From Escherichia coli (GTDB taxonomy: Bacteria > Pseudomonadota > Gammaproteobacteria > Enterobacterales > Enterobacteriaceae): DNA of 64,000 nt. The stretch is taken from NCBI RefSeq assembly GCF_041248615.1, contig NZ_CP158426.1; one strand, 5' to 3'. This document shows positions 3,001 through 9,000 of this stretch, piece after piece. The position numbers are program-made. Every line of letters starts with the position of its first letter. Position 1 is the first letter of the stretch.

Positions 3001-6000
3001 GGTAAAGCGAAAAGCCAGATTGCCAGCCAGGAACTGCCAGGGATGTCGCTGCGTGAGCTGTTTATGATCCTGTTGCTGGTGGTGCTGCTGGTACTGCTGG
3101 GCTTCTATCCGCAGCCGATTCTGGATACCTCGCACTCCGCGATTGGCAATATCCAGCAGTGGTTTGTTAATTCCGTTACTACTACAAGGCCGTAAATCGC
3201 CATGACAATAACTCCACAAAACCTGATCGCACTGCTACCGTTGCTGATCGTCGGCTTGACGGTGGTGGTTGTGATGCTCTCCATTGCGTGGCGACGCAAT
3301 CATTTCCTCAACGCTACGCTCTCGGTTATTGGGCTTAACGCGGCGCTGGTTTCGCTCTGGTTTGTCGGCCAGGCGGGCGCTATGGACGTTACGCCACTGA
3401 TGCGCGTTGATGGTTTCGCCATGCTTTACACCGGGCTGGTATTGTTGGCGAGCCTCGCCACCTGTACTTTCGCCTACCCGTGGCTTGAAGGCTATAACGA
3501 CAACAAGGACGAGTTCTACCTGTTGGTGTTAATTGCCGCGCTGGGCGGGATCCTGCTGGCGAATGCCAACCATCTGGCGTCTCTGTTCCTCGGTATCGAA
3601 CTGATCTCTTTGCCGCTGTTTGGCCTGGTCGGTTACGCTTTCCGCCAGAAACGTTCGCTGGAAGCCAGTATCAAATACACCATTCTCTCTGCCGCAGCGT
3701 CTTCTTTCCTGCTGTTTGGTATGGCGCTGGTGTATGCGCAGTCTGGCGACCTGTCGTTTGTCGCGCTGGGTAAAAACCTCGGCGACGGTATGCTCAACGA
3801 GCCGCTGTTGCTGGCAGGTTTCGGACTGATGATTGTTGGCCTCGGCTTCAAACTCTCTCTGGTGCCGTTCCACCTCTGGACGCCAGACGTATACCAGGGC
3901 GCGCCTGCGCCGGTTTCCACTTTCCTGGCGACGGCGAGCAAAATCGCTATCTTCGGTGTGGTGATGCGTCTGTTCCTCTACGCACCGGTGGGTGACAGCG
4001 AAGCGATTCGCGTGGTGCTGGCGATTATCGCCTTTGCCTCCATCATCTTCGGTAACCTGATGGCGCTGAGCCAGACCAATATCAAACGTCTGCTCGGTTA
4101 CTCATCTATCTCTCACCTCGGCTATCTGCTGGTGGCGCTGATTGCGCTGCAAACTGGCGAGATGTCGATGGAAGCGGTAGGGGTTTACCTGGCCGGTTAT
4201 CTGTTCAGCAGCCTAGGCGCGTTCGGCGTGGTCAGCCTGATGTCCAGCCCGTATCGTGGCCCGGATGCTGATTCCCTGTTCTCTTACCGCGGTCTGTTCT
4301 GGCATCGTCCGATCCTCGCGGCGGTGATGACGGTGATGATGCTGTCTCTGGCCGGTATCCCGATGACGCTGGGCTTTATCGGTAAGTTCTACGTGCTGGC
4401 GGTCGGTGTCCAGGCACACCTGTGGTGGCTGGTGGGTGCCGTGGTTGTCGGTTCGGCAATCGGCCTCTACTACTACCTGCGCGTGGCGGTGAGCCTGTAT
4501 CTTCACGCCCCGGAACAACCGGGTCGCGATGCACCATCAAACTGGCAGTACAGCGCGGGCGGTATCGTGGTGCTGATCTCTGCACTGTTGGTACTGGTGC
4601 TGGGTGTATGGCCACAACCGCTGATTAGCATTGTGCGGTTAGCCATGCCGCTGATGTAAGCTGTCAGTTCGTAAGTCAGAAAGCCGCCGACATGTTCGGC
4701 GGTTTTTTTTGGTGCCCTGACCCCATCACCCAACAATAACCGTCAGCGCATGATTCCCTTGTCGCAGCATACGTCGATACGCACTAATCAGCTTTTCCAT
4801 ATCAAGCATGATCGAAGCAAAGAGTTGCCCCTCTAACTCTTCTGAAAAAGTCACACCAGGGTAAATCTCTATTTCATTGAGTCGTTTAATGGAAAACTGT
4901 TTACGCAGCTCACTTCGATCCAGAGCTTCCAGTCGGTCGATTGTCGCGGCTAACTCCTGATTCCAGGTCAATCCCAGGAAGCCATCTATGCCATCTTCGA
5001 GGTTGTGTTCACCAAGCACGGCACGACTCAGCGGATCATTCTTCGCGGGATCAAAAGCAGAGGTGCCTGTCAGGCCAAAATGTAAAAAATCCCAGCGTTT
5101 ATCAATATCCAGTCGGTGTAATCCTGAAAGCGTGTCATGAATATTGTCCATTAAGGGTTTTTCAGTAGACTCAAGCAGTTGGTTAATCTTTTCTGAGTCA
5201 ATTTCTGCAAAATAGCCAATCATTCCCATTTTATTTTCCTCCGTTGAATTTCATGTTTCGCATCTTAAAACAGACGAGGGAAAATAAAATGTACATGTCG
5301 CTTTTTCTGGACTCGCCTCGAGAAATTTTTATTATTTACTGTTGTATAACAAAGTTATAACCCCATCCACTACCTGAGCCATTTTCTGATAATTTAATCT
5401 GTCTGCGGTATCACCGGGCAAGTGGTATTGTTTATTACGATAAAAAGCGGTGTCGGTAATCATTACGGCGGGAATATCGTGTTGCCAATAATTAAGGTGA
5501 TCAGAGAAATCAATACCGGGAATAAACCCTGGGGCATTCATAGAATAAACAGATAAATCCCGGGATGACAACAATGCCGCTTTTACCTGACGAACGGCGT
5601 TGATATCCTGCATTCTGCCGACCACGGCAATAAAGTCTCCCCGATCGGGATAAAGCCAGGACATTGCCGGGTAAGGGTAATCCTGACTACCAGGCGCAGA
5701 GTCGTAATAGCCAATCATCTCCAGCGCTATCATTAATCTCACTGGACGCTCAAGCGAAGCTGCATGTACCGCGCTCCCCATTTCATCGCTACGAAAGAAG
5801 GGCGGTTCTTCCGACGCATAGGCGACCAGCTGCACGCCAGTTTTCGGTGCTTGCTGCTGTAACAAACGTGCCAGTTCGAGTAATCCTGCCACGCCACTGG
5901 CGTTATCATCCGCGCCCGGCGTATAGGTCAATTGATCGTTTTCATAACTGCTGGCAGAGTCATAGTGCGCACCAATAATAATCAGCGGTCCATCGGCAGG

Positions 6001-9000
6001 ACCATAATCAGCAACAATGTTTTTGTAGGGGCCACCCGCAATGGGGACGTCCTGCGAGGTAACTCTGGCACCGCTACTGACAAAGACCTCTTTTATATAC
6101 TCTGCGGACCTATTCAGATTATCAATATTGTCGGCACTACGTGGATGCACAGTTTGTGTAAGATAACGAACTGTTTTTTCTAATTGCTCAGGACTTGCGT
6201 GTCGGGGCGTTGACGGTAATGCATTGACCCAAGGTTGGCAAAAAATAATCAGAGGGAGTGATAGTAGTAATGATATAAAACAAAGAGGTGTTATTTTTTT
6301 CATATGTAAATTATCAATAAAAGGCGTTATTTCATTATTATTTATAATGAGTTATGAGTATTTATTTTATTACGGTTGGTAGGAATATACAAAAAGTATT
6401 TTTTCAGTTGGTTCGCTATTTTAAAAAGGAATTCATATAAGAAATAAAAAATAAGTATGTTATTTATTGGTAGATTGAATTGACAGGGTGCAGAAATCTG
6501 AGGGTAAGAAAAATCAGCAACAACAATTCACTACATCAACAGACCAGCAATCGAGTGCCGCGATACGCTGGAAATACCCGCAGATTGAACTGGCGGGTGG
6601 TGTGACTGGCATCAGTCAGTGATGACTTTTTAGCAAACTATGTTCGACCAGTCAGCATATTTACTGACTGGTCGAATTAATTGACAATGATGTTAACTTA
6701 CTCTTTTTCCTGATGCTCTATTTTTTGGGTTGTGAATATTTTATTTCTAAGTTTCTATAATAATGATTGATATTTGCATCGCCATATTTATCTAAATAAC
6801 AATTTCTGTTTATCAGTCGATGTTGAAAATCAATTTCGTACTGCTCTTCTGCTGAATATTTTTTAAATCTGTCAGCATAGTTTTTTAATAACGTATAGGG
6901 AGCGCTGTCAGAATTGCTTTCCCTTTGTTCAATTACTTCTTTGGCTGCCATGCACACAAATGCACCGCAACTTTGGCTTAAATATTGCTGAAGATCGGCA
7001 TGTAAAAATATTATCTCGGGTTCAGTTAAATGATCTGTTATATTATCATTATTCGGCATTTCCCCCATGAATTTAGAATTGAAACTATTAATGACACGCT
7101 TAAGTGAATTTTCTTTATCATGGCCTAGTGCACGTAATGAGTTGAATATGACGCATTTTATTTGTTGTGTGTTATTTTTTTCATTTACTATTTTCTGTAG
7201 CGAAACTAATATCCAGTGTCCGCCAGTATTTATGGGGAATAACTGGACTTCATTCGGCCATGATGGATCGCTCTTAATATTTTCATTGAGCGCGATTTCC
7301 AGGTAAGTGCTGTTGGAATCGGGGAGATAGAGACCAGTAGGATAATTGACTTGAGTATTATTTGCATTAGCGGCGATCTTCTGAAGATAGCAATCTATTT
7401 CATCCGTGGTTAATTGACGATTTTTATCCCAGAAGTTTGTACCATCGCTCAGTTCATTATTCTTATCATTTAAAAGTACCTTTGAAAGCGACTGTTTTTC
7501 AGATATAAGAGGAATATCATCACCGATAATTGTCATTAATTTTGACGGGGAGAATAGCTTTTTGAACAGGAGATCATCTGAATTGTCCGGACCAGCTGGT
7601 TTAAGGGGGGAGTTGGTTGCGGCATGCGCCAAATTATATAATTTTAAACAGGCATTTTTAATAAGTCGGATAATCGATAGGGTCTCATTTGTTGGGTTTC
7701 TAACAATATGGTAAAGAATATCTTCAGCTTTTTTCCCAAATTCATCATAACCTAACGCAATGTTATGCAGTAACTCAATACTTTCTTCATCTCCGGATAA
7801 CGCTGTTTTTTTTAAAGACTGCAGTAATTCCTCGGTCACAGTAAATTTTTCTGCAAATGTCTGACAGAGTTGGGTTTGAGATAATTGACAATAATTGCTG
7901 ACAACTGTAACCATCATAGGCTCCTTTTAGTTGCAAAGGTTGTGCTGAATGAAGATAAAAAGAGGCAACTTATTGCTCTGAATATAGTGCGTGAGGAGAT
8001 GAATAAATATCAAAAATCGCTCAATATGCCCGTGTGGGTGGATATATGTAGCGCGGGTTGCGATAACAGGGCAAGTTTCGCCCTGTTTTTAATAATAAGC
8101 AGAGTTAAACGTTAAACACGGTGAAATCATTCGCCAGTTCAGTCGCCGGGAAAATTGACCGACATTCACGTAACAGGTGCTGACAACCTTTGTCATCATA
8201 GCGCGAGCTGACGTGGGTAATGATTAGCTTACCGACTCCAGCCTCACGGGCCAGTGTCGCAGCCTGGCGTGTAGAGCTGTGGCCGCGACTATTGGCTTTG
8301 GCTTCCATGGTTATATCCAACGTCGCTTCGTGCACCATGACATCGACGCCTTTAGCCAGGTCAAGTGCGGCATCGCAGGGGCCGGTATCGCCGAAAATAG
8401 CGAGCGCTTTACCTGGCACTGGAGCGGCTAAGTAATCTGCGCCGTTAATCTGCCTTCCATCTTCCAGTATGATTGTTTTGCCCGCTTTTAATGCCTGAAA
8501 CAGTGGGCCAGGCGGCACGCCAGCAGCTTTTAATGCCTGGGCATTTAATGCACCCGGTTTATCATGTTCTTCAATACGATAGCCATAGCATTCCAGTGGG
8601 TGTTCCAGCGGATAAGCGGTCACTTTGCGCAGGCCATCATCGAAAATTTCGCCAGCGCCGATTTCGACAATTTCCAGCGGATAATCGGTCCATGAGCCGC
8701 TAATCCGCAGCGCGGTCTCCACAAATTCACGGATACCTTGCGGACCATAAATCGTTAAGGGTTGGATAATGCCTGACATAGAACGACTGCACAGTAAGCC
8801 GGGTAATCCAAAGAGATGATCGCCATGAAGGTGACTGATAAAAATCTTGTCCAGTTTTCCAGGGTTAAAGGGGGTATGCAGTAGCTGATGCTGGGTGCCT
8901 TCACCGCAGTCAAATAACCAAAGTCCGCTCTGGGTCGGATGTTGCAGGTTAAGCAATATTGCCGTGACATTGCGCGTACGGGTTGGCACACCGGCTGAAG

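What the first reader, a model, noticed from the sequence alone, without database searches (positions are those of the whole stretch)
4660..6717. Compact nuoN-yfbM junction and a 414-bp AT-rich gap between yfbL and elaD where K-12 carries extra genes
From memory, K-12 has yfbN-yfbO-yfbP between nuoN and yfbM and yfbK between yfbL and elaD. Here nuoN and yfbM are separated by only 66 bp containing a bidirectional terminator. The yfbL-elaD gap is a 414-bp AT-rich spacer with a perfect 11-bp inverted repeat (6645-6674) and no ORF of 60 aa or more. This points to strain-specific islet content, either insertions in K-12 or deletions here. The GC-richer stretch at about 6480-6600 could be a gene remnant or a small RNA.
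Basis: inference. Interest (0 to 1): 0.3.

Follow-up and report, generated by a model that had tools for sequence, protein, structure and literature searches.

The report
Decayed yfbK remnant, empty islet site
The 414-bp AT-rich gap is the wreck of the yfbK gene (about 89% deleted, start codon lost) and the tight nuoN-yfbM junction is the original, unoccupied site into which K-12 received the yfbNOP islet; both are common, ordinary gene-content differences among E. coli strains.

Summary
The window is E. coli, 100% identical to strain TUM14771. K-12 reads nuoN-yfbP-yfbO-yfbN-yfbM-yfbL-yfbK-elaD; the window reads nuoN-yfbM-yfbL-[414 bp]-elaD.

The two junctions have opposite polarity.

1. The 66-bp nuoN-yfbM junction is the ancestral empty site. 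It is almost base-for-base the same in phylogroup B2, O157:H7 and a divergent Escherichia genome, and 4214 of 5426 complete genomes (78%) carry it. The low-GC yfbNOP islet (946-1015 genomes, nearly all at least 99% identical) replaces 17 bp of it.

2. The 414-bp gap is a deletion here. The GC-richer stretch is a yfbK remnant: nt 1-132, 1456-1476 and 1690-1728, joined by two in-frame deletions of 1323 and 213 nt. Its start codon is lost (ATG to ATA) and it contains stop codons. This remnant allele is in 2577 genomes (47%); intact yfbK is in 2513 (46%).

The inverted repeat is 13 bp, not 11. It lies inside the horizontally acquired elaD islet and is absent from genomes without elaD. No Rfam family matches, and the 44-aa ORF is not conserved.

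One mild oddity remains: the remnant haplotype is only about 70% identical to intact alleles and resembles a divergent Escherichia lineage. Interest is low.

The parts
3202..4659 (+). nuoN, the last gene of the nuo operon
   Evidence: ORF. RefSeq annotation of the identical strain. 98.7% identical to K-12 nuoN.
4680..4710 (+). nuoN intrinsic terminator: hairpin CCGCCGA/TCGGCGG (4684-4702), extendable by AAAG/T pairs, followed by T8 (4703-4710). On the - strand it is a weaker hairpin for yfbM with the tail CUUUCU.
   Evidence: Folding (+ strand -18.6 kcal/mol, z -3.3; - strand -12.9 kcal/mol, z -2.4). Conserved in all genomes compared. Not listed by the consensus scan.
4708..4724 (.). Unoccupied islet site: the 17 bp (TTTGGTGCCCTGACCCC) that are replaced by the 2.56-kb yfbP-yfbO-yfbN islet in K-12 and by a variant islet in ETEC6335
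   Evidence: BLAST breakpoints at 4707 and 4725. Junction alignment of the window, ST131, O157, KK19-02, SCPM-O-B-8794, K-12 and ETEC6335.
4726..5229 (-). yfbM (YfbM family, DUF1877), intact, 167 aa
   Evidence: Pfam label.
5332..6303 (-). yfbL (M28 metallopeptidase), intact, 323 aa. Its first ~15 codons (about 6260-6303) are of a divergent haplotype that resembles Escherichia genome SCPM-O-B-8794.
   Evidence: Sliding identity. N-terminal alignment.
6304..6436 (.). Former yfbL/yfbK divergent promoter region. The 6304-6479 stretch that contains it is 21% GC.
   Evidence: Composition. Alignment to intact alleles.
6437..6562 (+). yfbK remnant, piece 1 (K-12 yfbK nt 1-132). The start codon is ATG to ATA at 6437-6439, net 6 nt are lost, in-frame stops are present and the lipoprotein signal peptide is destroyed.
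   Evidence: Translation IRNKK*VCYLLVD*IDRVQ....
6563..6583 (+). yfbK remnant, piece 2 (K-12 yfbK nt 1456-1476, encoding IRWKYPQ), left between a 1323-nt and a 213-nt deletion
   Evidence: 20 of 21 nt identical, same order, same frame.
6584..6622 (+). yfbK remnant, piece 3 (K-12 yfbK nt 1690-1728 including the stop TGA at 6620-6622)
6488..6622 (+). 44-aa GTG-initiated ORF, annotated 'hypothetical protein' WP_001328566.1 in RefSeq. It is the in-frame chimera of the three yfbK pieces and probably not a real gene.
   Evidence: The start codon is GGG in O157 and YA-1. The only database relatives are 44-63-aa E. coli remnants.
6596..8101 (.). elaD islet: sequence present in elaD-positive E. coli but replaced by an unrelated 144 bp in ST131. 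elaD is likewise absent in E. albertii, MOD1-EC7003 and SCPM-O-B-8794. The islet supplies the last 27 nt of yfbK, the hairpin, elaD and the elaD upstream region.
   Evidence: Breakpoints at K-12 L002 9417 and 10911. Outgroup gene content. K-12 elaD is 35% GC.
6643..6676 (.). Perfect 13-bp inverted repeat with an 8-nt loop, between the convergent yfbK (remnant) and elaD 3' ends. Probably a 3'-end hairpin; there is no U-tract on either strand.
   Evidence: Both arms are present in the window, K-12, YA-1 and O157, one arm matches in KK19-02, and neither is found in the genomes without elaD.
6718..7917 (-). elaD (CE-clan deubiquitinase), 399 aa. One extra A in an A-run (T6 at 6721-6726 on the + strand) shifts the frame, so the last 9 residues (NRASGKRVS) are replaced by K plus a stop. 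PGAP flags it as frameshifted and extends it to 6693.

Best explanation
The region shows two independent, ordinary gene-content polymorphisms of the E. coli nuoN-rbn interval.

(1) The 66-bp nuoN-yfbM junction is the ancestral, never-occupied state. It consists of the nuoN terminator hairpin with its U8 tract plus 17 bp. In K-12 and about 17-19% of complete genomes, a low-GC 2.56-kb islet (yfbP-yfbO-yfbN) has replaced those 17 bp.

(2) The 414-bp yfbL-elaD gap is what remains after yfbK (a vWA-domain lipoprotein gene) was destroyed. Two internal in-frame deletions of 1323 and 213 nt removed 89% of the gene. The start codon and signal-peptide codons then decayed. What is left is the old AT-rich yfbL/yfbK divergent promoter (6304-6436) and 186 nt of yfbK-derived sequence (6437-6622).

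The right-hand end of the gap, from 6596, takes in the last 27 nt of that remnant and then non-coding DNA. It belongs to the horizontally acquired elaD islet and carries a 13-bp-stem hairpin (6643-6676), which most likely stabilises or terminates the convergent transcripts.

The sequence relationships and population counts are shown directly. That the remnant is non-functional, and that the hairpins act as terminators, is inferred.
For: Gene order. K-12 is nuoN-yfbP-yfbO-yfbN-yfbM-yfbL-yfbK-elaD-rbn. The window's own strain is nuoN-yfbM-yfbL-(44-aa hypothetical)-elaD.

yfbK remnant:
- Window 6304-6562 aligns to the K-12 yfbL-yfbK spacer plus yfbK nt 1-132. Window 6563-6583 aligns to nt 1456-1476 and 6584-6622 to nt 1690-1728. 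All pieces are collinear and in frame.
- Translation gives ...SEGKKNQQQQFTTSTDQQSSAA|IRWKYPQ|IELAGGVTGISQ*, against K-12 YfbK ...ENKESQQQQPSTPTEQQVLAA..., IRWKYPQ and IELADGVTDISQ*.
- ATG has become ATA, and there are two in-frame stops upstream.
- The same junctions occur in O157:H7 and YA-1.

Population, out of 5426 complete genomes:
- 2577 carry the remnant allele over at least 80% of the 414 bp in one piece.
- 2513 carry the deleted interior of yfbK.
- About 547 have the window's exact architecture of intact yfbL plus remnant, at 95% identity or better.

Outgroups. E. albertii, Escherichia sp. MOD1-EC7003 and B2 E. coli have intact yfbK at this position, so yfbK is ancestral.

Empty site:
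- The junction sequence GGCGG-T8-GGTGCCCTGAC(A/C)CC-ATCACCC is conserved in the window, ST131, O157 and KK19-02, and in the divergent genome SCPM-O-B-8794 with a few substitutions.
- It is present in 4214 of 5426 genomes.
- The islet is 39.8% GC and occurs in 946-1015 genomes, 985 of them at 99% identity or better.
- A different cassette in ETEC6335 uses the same two boundaries.

No Rfam match reaches a meaningful score anywhere in 4400-7000.
Against: - The left part of the gap (about 6260-6562) is only 66-72% identical to intact-yfbK alleles, while flanking genes are 95-99% identical. That is more than in-place neutral decay within E. coli should produce, so the history is not simply 'deletion then decay' in this lineage.
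- Both deletions are in frame. A metagenome contig carries them behind an intact promoter, ATG and lipobox, giving a 63-aa ORF. A short-lived or residual function of a mini-protein cannot be strictly excluded.
- yfbN (95.8% identical to K-12) is also present in the outgroup Escherichia sp. MOD1-EC7003. The islet is therefore older than, or more mobile than, a single recent K-12-lineage insertion.
- Terminator activity was not measured. The simple terminator scan missed the nuoN hairpin.
Confidence: 0.9

Rival explanations
1. The remnant haplotype did not arise in place. It was imported by homologous recombination from a divergent Escherichia lineage, possibly together with elaD, or it is an old trans-specific allele. 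It now segregates at about 47% against the intact allele. On this view the gap is foreign DNA carrying an already-deleted yfbK.
For: - Identity drops in a step at about 6260, from 97-100% to 66-70%, against K-12, KK19-02, ST131 and MOD1.
- The window's YfbL signal peptide MKKITPLCFISLLLSLPLIIF matches SCPM-O-B-8794 (MNKITVLCFISLLLSLPLIIF), not E. coli (MKKIIFAFIILFVFLLPMIIF).
- The O157 remnant's CAACAATCCACTACATCAACAGACCAGCA differs from the SCPM sequence at 1 of 29 positions (the window's copy at 2) but from the K-12 sequence at 7.
- The last 27 nt of K-12 yfbK are islet-derived and differ from the B2 and outgroup yfbK ends, as if elaD arrived attached to another yfbK allele.
- The metagenome allele L038 looks like a recombinant: E. 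coli-type 5' end and remnant-type 3' end.
Against: - No full-length yfbK carrying the remnant-type N-terminus was found among 5.8 billion proteins. Only 44-63-aa E. coli remnants turned up.
- SCPM-O-B-8794 lacks elaD and carries a different yfbK deletion (nt 120-1587).
- The comparison rests on about 300 bp of AT-rich, indel-prone sequence and on one outgroup genome of that type.
Confidence: 0.4
2. The GC-richer stretch (6480-6622) encodes a functional small RNA or a 44-aa microprotein that has been retained by selection after yfbK was truncated.
For: - PGAP annotates the 44-aa ORF.
- The remnant is kept in 2577 genomes.
- Both deletions are in frame.
- One allele has a 63-aa ORF with an intact lipoprotein signal.
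Against: - There is no Rfam match.
- The promoter scan gives no promoter-like site in the gap.
- The GTG start is GGG in O157 and YA-1, and PGAP calls no gene there.
- Upstream in-frame stops and the lost ATG remove the signal peptide.
- Window and O157 remnants differ by about 6-7%, more than the 3-4% seen at the nuoN-yfbM junction. This fits no constraint.
Confidence: 0.04
3. The compact nuoN-yfbM junction results from a precise deletion of yfbNOP in this lineage, with the islet being ancestral.
For: yfbN is present next to yfbM in the outgroup Escherichia sp. MOD1-EC7003. Its divergence (95.8%) is similar to that of the flanking genes.
Against: - The same 66-bp junction is found in B2, E (O157), KK19-02 and the window, and in the more distant SCPM-O-B-8794 genome with a few substitutions. 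Independent deletions would not regenerate it.
- 78% of genomes have the compact junction.
- The islet is low-GC and nearly invariant.
- Alternative cassettes occupy the same boundaries.
Confidence: 0.05

Closest known systems
yfbK (b2270) of E. coli K-12, a vWA-domain lipoprotein gene of unknown function
   Same: Same chromosomal position and orientation, between yfbL and elaD. 186 nt are collinear and in frame with its 5' end, an internal 21 nt and its 3' end.
   Different: 1536 of 1728 nt are deleted. The start codon is lost, the signal peptide is destroyed and stop codons are present. No vWA domain remains, so this is a pseudogene remnant and not a gene.
Strain-specific islets of E. coli: the 'K-islands' and 'O-islands' of the K-12 versus O157:H7 comparisons (recalled from general knowledge, not checked here)
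   Same: yfbNOP behaves as such an islet. It is low-GC (39.8%), sits at a fixed site next to a terminator, and is present in 17-19% of genomes at 99% identity or better. An alternative cassette occurs at the same boundaries.
   Different: The window carries the empty site, so none of the islet is present here. No integrase, tRNA or direct repeats flank the site, so the insertion mechanism is not apparent.
elaD islet (ElaD, a CE-clan deubiquitinase, reported absent from phylogroup B2: PMC1847702, PMC12575377)
   Same: The right end of the gap (from 6596) and the 13-bp hairpin are part of the segment that elaD-positive strains have and that B2 and outgroup Escherichia lack. The literature reports that elaD is absent from ST131 and B2 (PMC12575377).
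   Different: The papers read do not mention yfbK, yfbL or the flanking context. In this window elaD carries a 3'-terminal +1 frameshift.
Rho-independent (intrinsic) terminators
   Same: The nuoN 3' hairpin has a 7-bp GC-rich stem, a 5-nt loop and U8. The A-run upstream and U-run downstream give it a partly bidirectional design.
   Different: The 6643-6676 hairpin lacks a U-tract on either strand. The - strand tail of the nuoN hairpin is only CUUUCU. No activity was measured.

Membership tests
yfbK pseudogene remnant | Nucleotide homology to yfbK at the syntenic position and in the same orientation | tested here: met
   Window 6437-6562, 6563-6583 and 6584-6622 align to K-12 yfbK nt 1-132, 1456-1476 and 1690-1728.
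yfbK pseudogene remnant | Loss of coding capacity (start codon, reading frame, domains) | tested here: met
   ATG to ATA, two in-frame stops, 1536 nt deleted and the vWA domain gone.
yfbK pseudogene remnant | The intact gene is present at this site in relatives and outgroups, which gives the polarity | tested here: met
   Intact in K-12, KK19-02, ST131, Escherichia sp. MOD1-EC7003 and E. albertii.
Horizontally acquired islet (yfbNOP) with the window as the empty site | Identical uninterrupted junction in diverse lineages and in an outgroup | tested here: met
   (window, ST131, O157, KK19-02, SCPM-O-B-8794). 4214 of 5426 genomes.
Horizontally acquired islet (yfbNOP) with the window as the empty site | Atypical composition and restricted, low-diversity distribution of the islet | tested here: met
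   39.8% GC against 51.5%. 946-1015 genomes, 985 of them at 99% identity or better.
Horizontally acquired islet (yfbNOP) with the window as the empty site | Mobility signatures (integrase, flanking direct repeats, tRNA) | tested here: not met
   No repeats at the boundaries and no integrase among the annotated genes.
Small RNA gene | Match to a curated RNA family | tested here: not met
   The best hits in 4400-7000 have E 0.14-0.79, far below the gathering scores, and none falls in 6304-6717.
Small RNA gene | Own promoter and terminator bracketing a discrete transcript | tested here: inconclusive
   No promoter-like site lies in the gap. One weak terminator-like site is at 6605-6620. Expression data are not available.
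Small protein gene (44-aa ORF 6488-6622) | Start codon and ORF conserved across alleles | tested here: not met
   GTG is GGG in O157 and YA-1. The database holds only fragmentary 44-63-aa E. coli entries.
Intrinsic terminator (nuoN 3' end, 4680-4710) | GC-rich hairpin immediately followed by a U-tract | tested here: met
   7-bp stem with 6 G-C pairs, U8, -18.6 kcal/mol.
Intrinsic terminator (nuoN 3' end, 4680-4710) | Termination activity in both directions | not testable with these tools
   The - strand hairpin folds at -12.9 kcal/mol with the tail CUUUCU. Term-seq or a reporter assay is needed.
Intrinsic terminator (hairpin 6643-6676) | U-tract after the stem | tested here: not met
   The + strand tail is UUAAUUGAC and the - strand tail is CAUAGUUUGC.

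The most novel reading that the evidence does not exclude
The yfbK-remnant haplotype, running from the first ~15 codons of yfbL through the remnant, is not a product of decay in place. It is an allele of foreign or trans-specific origin, closest to that of a divergent Escherichia lineage (SCPM-O-B-8794-like), and may have entered E. coli together with elaD. It has been kept at roughly equal frequency with the intact yfbK allele (47% against 46%). yfbK has been deleted at least twice with different endpoints in the genus, and yfbL is additionally deleted in about 40% of genomes. Together these hint at recurrent selection against the yfbL-yfbK pair in elaD-positive gut lineages.
Probability: 0.3. 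Interest if true: 0.3.

Novelty: already known. Interest (0 to 1): 0.1.

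Why it matters
It matters little beyond bookkeeping.

- **Annotation.** The 44-aa 'hypothetical protein' WP_001328566.1 that RefSeq places in this gap is a yfbK pseudogene fragment. The elaD 'pseudogene' call rests on a frameshift that changes only the last 9 residues.
- **K-12 as a reference.** K-12 is atypical at the nuoN-yfbM junction, where 78% of genomes are compact. At yfbK the species is split roughly in half.
- **Possible follow-up.** The deep divergence of the remnant haplotype and the repeated loss of yfbK and yfbL might interest someone studying recombination or gene loss around the elaD effector locus. 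It does not open a new mechanism or a new class of element.

Tried and rejected
- **Rfam scan** of 4400-7000 at a permissive E-value. It gave only chance-level hits (ryfA 17.5 bits against a gathering score of 80, a fluoride riboswitch at 16 bits, and others) and none in the gap. The small-RNA reading was dropped.
- **Promoter and terminator scan**. It found no promoter-like site in the gap and missed the obvious nuoN hairpin, so I folded the sequences directly.
- **Search for an intact 'donor' yfbK** with the remnant-type termini, using the 44-aa peptide against 5.8 billion proteins. Only 7 clusters were found, all short E. coli remnants, so no donor was identified.
- **Microhomology or direct repeats** at the two deletion junctions and at the islet boundaries. 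There is at most 1 nt (G) at the second deletion and nothing informative elsewhere, so no mechanism can be read from the junctions.
- **Direct count of the window's exact architecture** with a 921-bp query. Megablast extended through the diverged region, so the coverage criterion failed. I used the identity bands instead: 547 genomes at 95% or better. Treat that as an estimate.
- **A first global alignment with cheap gap extension** scattered short spurious matches across the deletion. The three-piece structure was taken only from pieces confirmed by BLAST, multiple alignment and translation.
- **Literature**. Nothing specific on yfbK loss was found. The elaD papers confirm its absence from B2 but do not discuss the flanks.

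Full report
**Observation**

- nuoN (+) ends at 4659 and yfbM (-) occupies 4726-5229, leaving 66 bp.
- yfbL (-) is 5332-6303 and elaD (-) is 6718-7917, leaving 6304-6717 = 414 bp.
- No ORF of 60 aa or more lies in that gap.

The gap is 33.8% GC against 51.5% for the window. It has a 21%-GC left part (6304-6479) and a 49%-GC stretch at 6480-6622.

The nuoN-yfbM spacer contains the hairpin CCGCCGA-CATGT-TCGGCGG followed by T8. It folds at -18.6 kcal/mol on the + strand. On the - strand it is weaker, -12.9 kcal/mol, with a poor U-tract. 'Bidirectional' is therefore plausible but asymmetric.

The inverted repeat is in fact 13 perfect base pairs (6643-6655 and 6664-6676) with an 8-nt loop. Its z-score is -8 to -9 against shuffles.

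**Identity of the window and the K-12 comparison**

The 3.8 kb around the finding is 100% identical to E. coli strain TUM14771. RefSeq annotates that strain as nuoN, yfbM, yfbL, a 44-aa hypothetical protein, 'frameshifted' elaD, and rbn. A K-12 genome reads nuoN-yfbP-yfbO-yfbN-yfbM-yfbL-yfbK-elaD-rbn.

**What the 414-bp gap is**

BLAST, pairwise and multiple alignments divide the gap as follows:

| Window | Corresponds to |
|---|---|
| 6304-6436 | K-12 yfbL-yfbK intergenic region |
| 6437-6562 | yfbK nt 1-132 |
| 6563-6583 | yfbK nt 1456-1476 |
| 6584-6622 | yfbK nt 1690-1728, including the stop |

Two internal deletions of 1323 and 213 nt, both multiples of three, therefore removed 1536 of 1728 nt.

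Translation confirms this. The window gives ...SEGKKNQQQQFTTSTDQQSSAA-IRWKYPQ-IELAGGVTGISQ*. K-12 YfbK has ...ENKESQQQQPSTPTEQQVLAA......IRWKYPQ... and ...IELADGVTDISQ*.

Upstream, the start codon is ATA instead of ATG. Small indels and two in-frame stops destroy the lipoprotein signal peptide.

The 44-aa ORF that PGAP calls is simply the in-frame chimera. Its GTG start is GGG in O157:H7 and in strain YA-1, where no gene is called. The only relatives among 5.8 billion proteins are seven clusters of 44-63-aa E. coli fragments. Rfam has nothing in the gap.

**The right end of the gap belongs to the elaD islet**

I compared K-12 with an ST131 (B2) genome that has yfbK directly followed by rbn. 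Homology stops 27 nt before the K-12 yfbK stop and resumes at the rbn stop. So window 6596-8101 is a separate segment that elaD-positive strains carry. It comprises the last 27 nt of yfbK, the hairpin, elaD and the elaD upstream region.

Both arms of the 13-bp repeat are present in the window, K-12, YA-1 and O157, and one arm matches in KK19-02. Neither arm is found in ST131, Escherichia sp. MOD1-EC7003, SCPM-O-B-8794 or E. albertii. All of those also lack elaD. The absence of elaD from B2 is reported in the literature (PMC12575377; PMC1847702).

**Polarity and frequency**

*yfbK.* It is intact at this position in E. albertii, Escherichia sp. MOD1-EC7003, B2, K-12 and KK19-02. It is therefore ancestral, and the window carries a deletion.

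Among 5426 complete E. coli genomes:
- 2577 (47%) carry the remnant allele as one collinear piece.
- 2513 (46%) carry the deleted interior of yfbK.
- About 547 (10%) match the window's architecture of intact yfbL plus remnant at 95% identity or better. PCN033 matches at 100%.
- Roughly 2000-2175 are O157-like and have a further 322-bp deletion inside yfbL.

*yfbNOP.* The junction around the hairpin and the 17 bp TTTGGTGCCCTGAC(A/C)CC is conserved in the window, ST131, O157 and KK19-02. It is also conserved, with a few substitutions, in SCPM-O-B-8794, a divergent genome whose rbn, elaA and menF are only about 85% identical to K-12. The compact junction occurs in 4214 genomes (78%).

The K-12 islet replaces exactly those 17 bp. 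It is 39.8% GC and occurs in 946-1015 genomes, 985 of which are at least 99% identical. In ETEC6335 a different cassette (yfbO-like, yfbN-like and an SMI1/KNR4 gene) sits between the same boundaries.

The window therefore has the ancestral empty site and K-12 has an insertion. One caveat applies. yfbN is also present, at 95.8% identity, next to yfbM in Escherichia sp. MOD1-EC7003. The islet is therefore not confined to the K-12 lineage.

**The one feature that is not fully ordinary**

Identity between the window and intact-yfbK alleles falls abruptly at about 6260. It goes from 97-100% to 66-72% and stays low through the remnant, while the flanking genes are 95-99% identical.

The window's YfbL signal peptide and the remnant-type yfbK 5' sequence resemble SCPM-O-B-8794 rather than other E. 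coli. That genome has its own yfbK deletion with different endpoints (nt 120-1587). yfbK has therefore been lost at least twice, unless both alleles descend from a shared first deletion.

A metagenome contig (L038) combines an intact E. coli-type promoter, ATG and lipobox with the same two deletions. This gives a 63-aa ORF, and the contig looks like a recombinant.

The remnant haplotype may therefore be an imported or very old allele rather than the product of decay in place. I put this at about 0.3-0.4. No intact donor gene was found, and the evidence rests on about 300 bp of AT-rich sequence.

**Comparison with what is known, and verdict**

This is pseudogene decay plus presence or absence of an islet. 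Both are well-known kinds of E. coli strain variation and both are visible in every annotated genome.
- insertion in K-12 at nuoN-yfbM;
- deletion here at yfbL-elaD;
- the GC-richer stretch is a yfbK remnant, not an sRNA.

Practical by-products are two annotation corrections: the 44-aa 'hypothetical protein', and the elaD 'pseudogene' call that reflects only a C-terminal +1 frameshift. Interest is low, at about 0.1.

Noticed in passing
window 6718-6726 (elaD 3' end): elaD has one extra A in an A-run (A6 against A5 in K-12, O157 and KK19-02). This gives a 399-aa protein ending ...SQPKK* instead of ...[11 protein letters not shown] (403-407 aa). PGAP marks the gene 'frameshifted', but only the last 9 residues are affected.
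   Followed up: partly
window 6260-6303 (yfbL codons 1-15): The signal-peptide codons of the otherwise E. coli-typical yfbL are of a different haplotype, MKKITPLCFISLLLSLPLIIF. They are nearly identical to the divergent Escherichia genome SCPM-O-B-8794 and unlike K-12, ST131 and KK19-02. The identity step lies at about 6260.
   Followed up: partly
L038 1937-2128 (metagenome contig ERZ28663831 scaffold_2763); also L039: An allele with the same two yfbK deletions but an intact promoter, ATG and lipobox. It encodes a 63-aa mini-lipoprotein ORF (MRNKNIIMLLISSLILSGCGPEPEDKKSQQQQSTTSTDQQSRAAIRWKYPQIELAGGVTDISQ). It is probably a recombinant between intact-type and remnant-type alleles.
   Followed up: partly
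L004 3533-4171 and L006 2360-2977 (YA-1 and O157:H7), equivalent to window 5717-6038: In the commonest remnant-type genomes yfbL is also broken by a 322-bp internal deletion, so both yfbL and yfbK are dead in roughly 40% of complete E. coli genomes.
   Followed up: partly
L007 3001-4889 (ETEC6335); L008 reverse complement 378-1098 (Escherichia sp. MOD1-EC7003); L002 5730-6000 (K-12): The islet site next to nuoN holds alternative cassettes. ETEC6335 has yfbO-like and yfbN-like genes (the cassette region is about 83% identical to K-12) plus an SMI1/KNR4-family gene, a family I recall as typical of toxin-immunity proteins. In Escherichia sp. MOD1-EC7003 the 721-bp yfbN-yfbM spacer ends in the same sequence as the ETEC6335 cassette, so it may carry that gene too; no ORF was called there. 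Part of the K-12 yfbN-yfbM spacer is similar to the MOD1 spacer and may be a truncated remnant of the gene.
   Followed up: partly
L009 reverse complement 7107-7351 ('E. coli' SCPM-O-B-8794): This genome is labelled E. coli, but its rbn, elaA and menF are only about 85% identical to K-12, while nuoM and nuoN are 96%. It carries a yfbK deletion with endpoints different from the window's (nt 120-1587) and has no elaD.
   Followed up: no
H29 (NRG 857C) and H160 (GPEC1209): A further architecture exists in which yfbL is followed directly by a gene annotated 'deubiquitinase'. The match to the window ends near 6369. I did not examine it.
   Followed up: no
(loci L011-L037): Outside Escherichia, the nearest YfbL relatives recovered were only 31-50% identical and came from Opitutales, Nitrospirae, Thiothrix, Bacteroidota and Acinetobacter. 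No other Enterobacteriaceae turned up. This suggests the yfbM-yfbL-yfbK block is itself an old Escherichia-specific acquisition, although the pattern-based search is biased towards close relatives.
   Followed up: no
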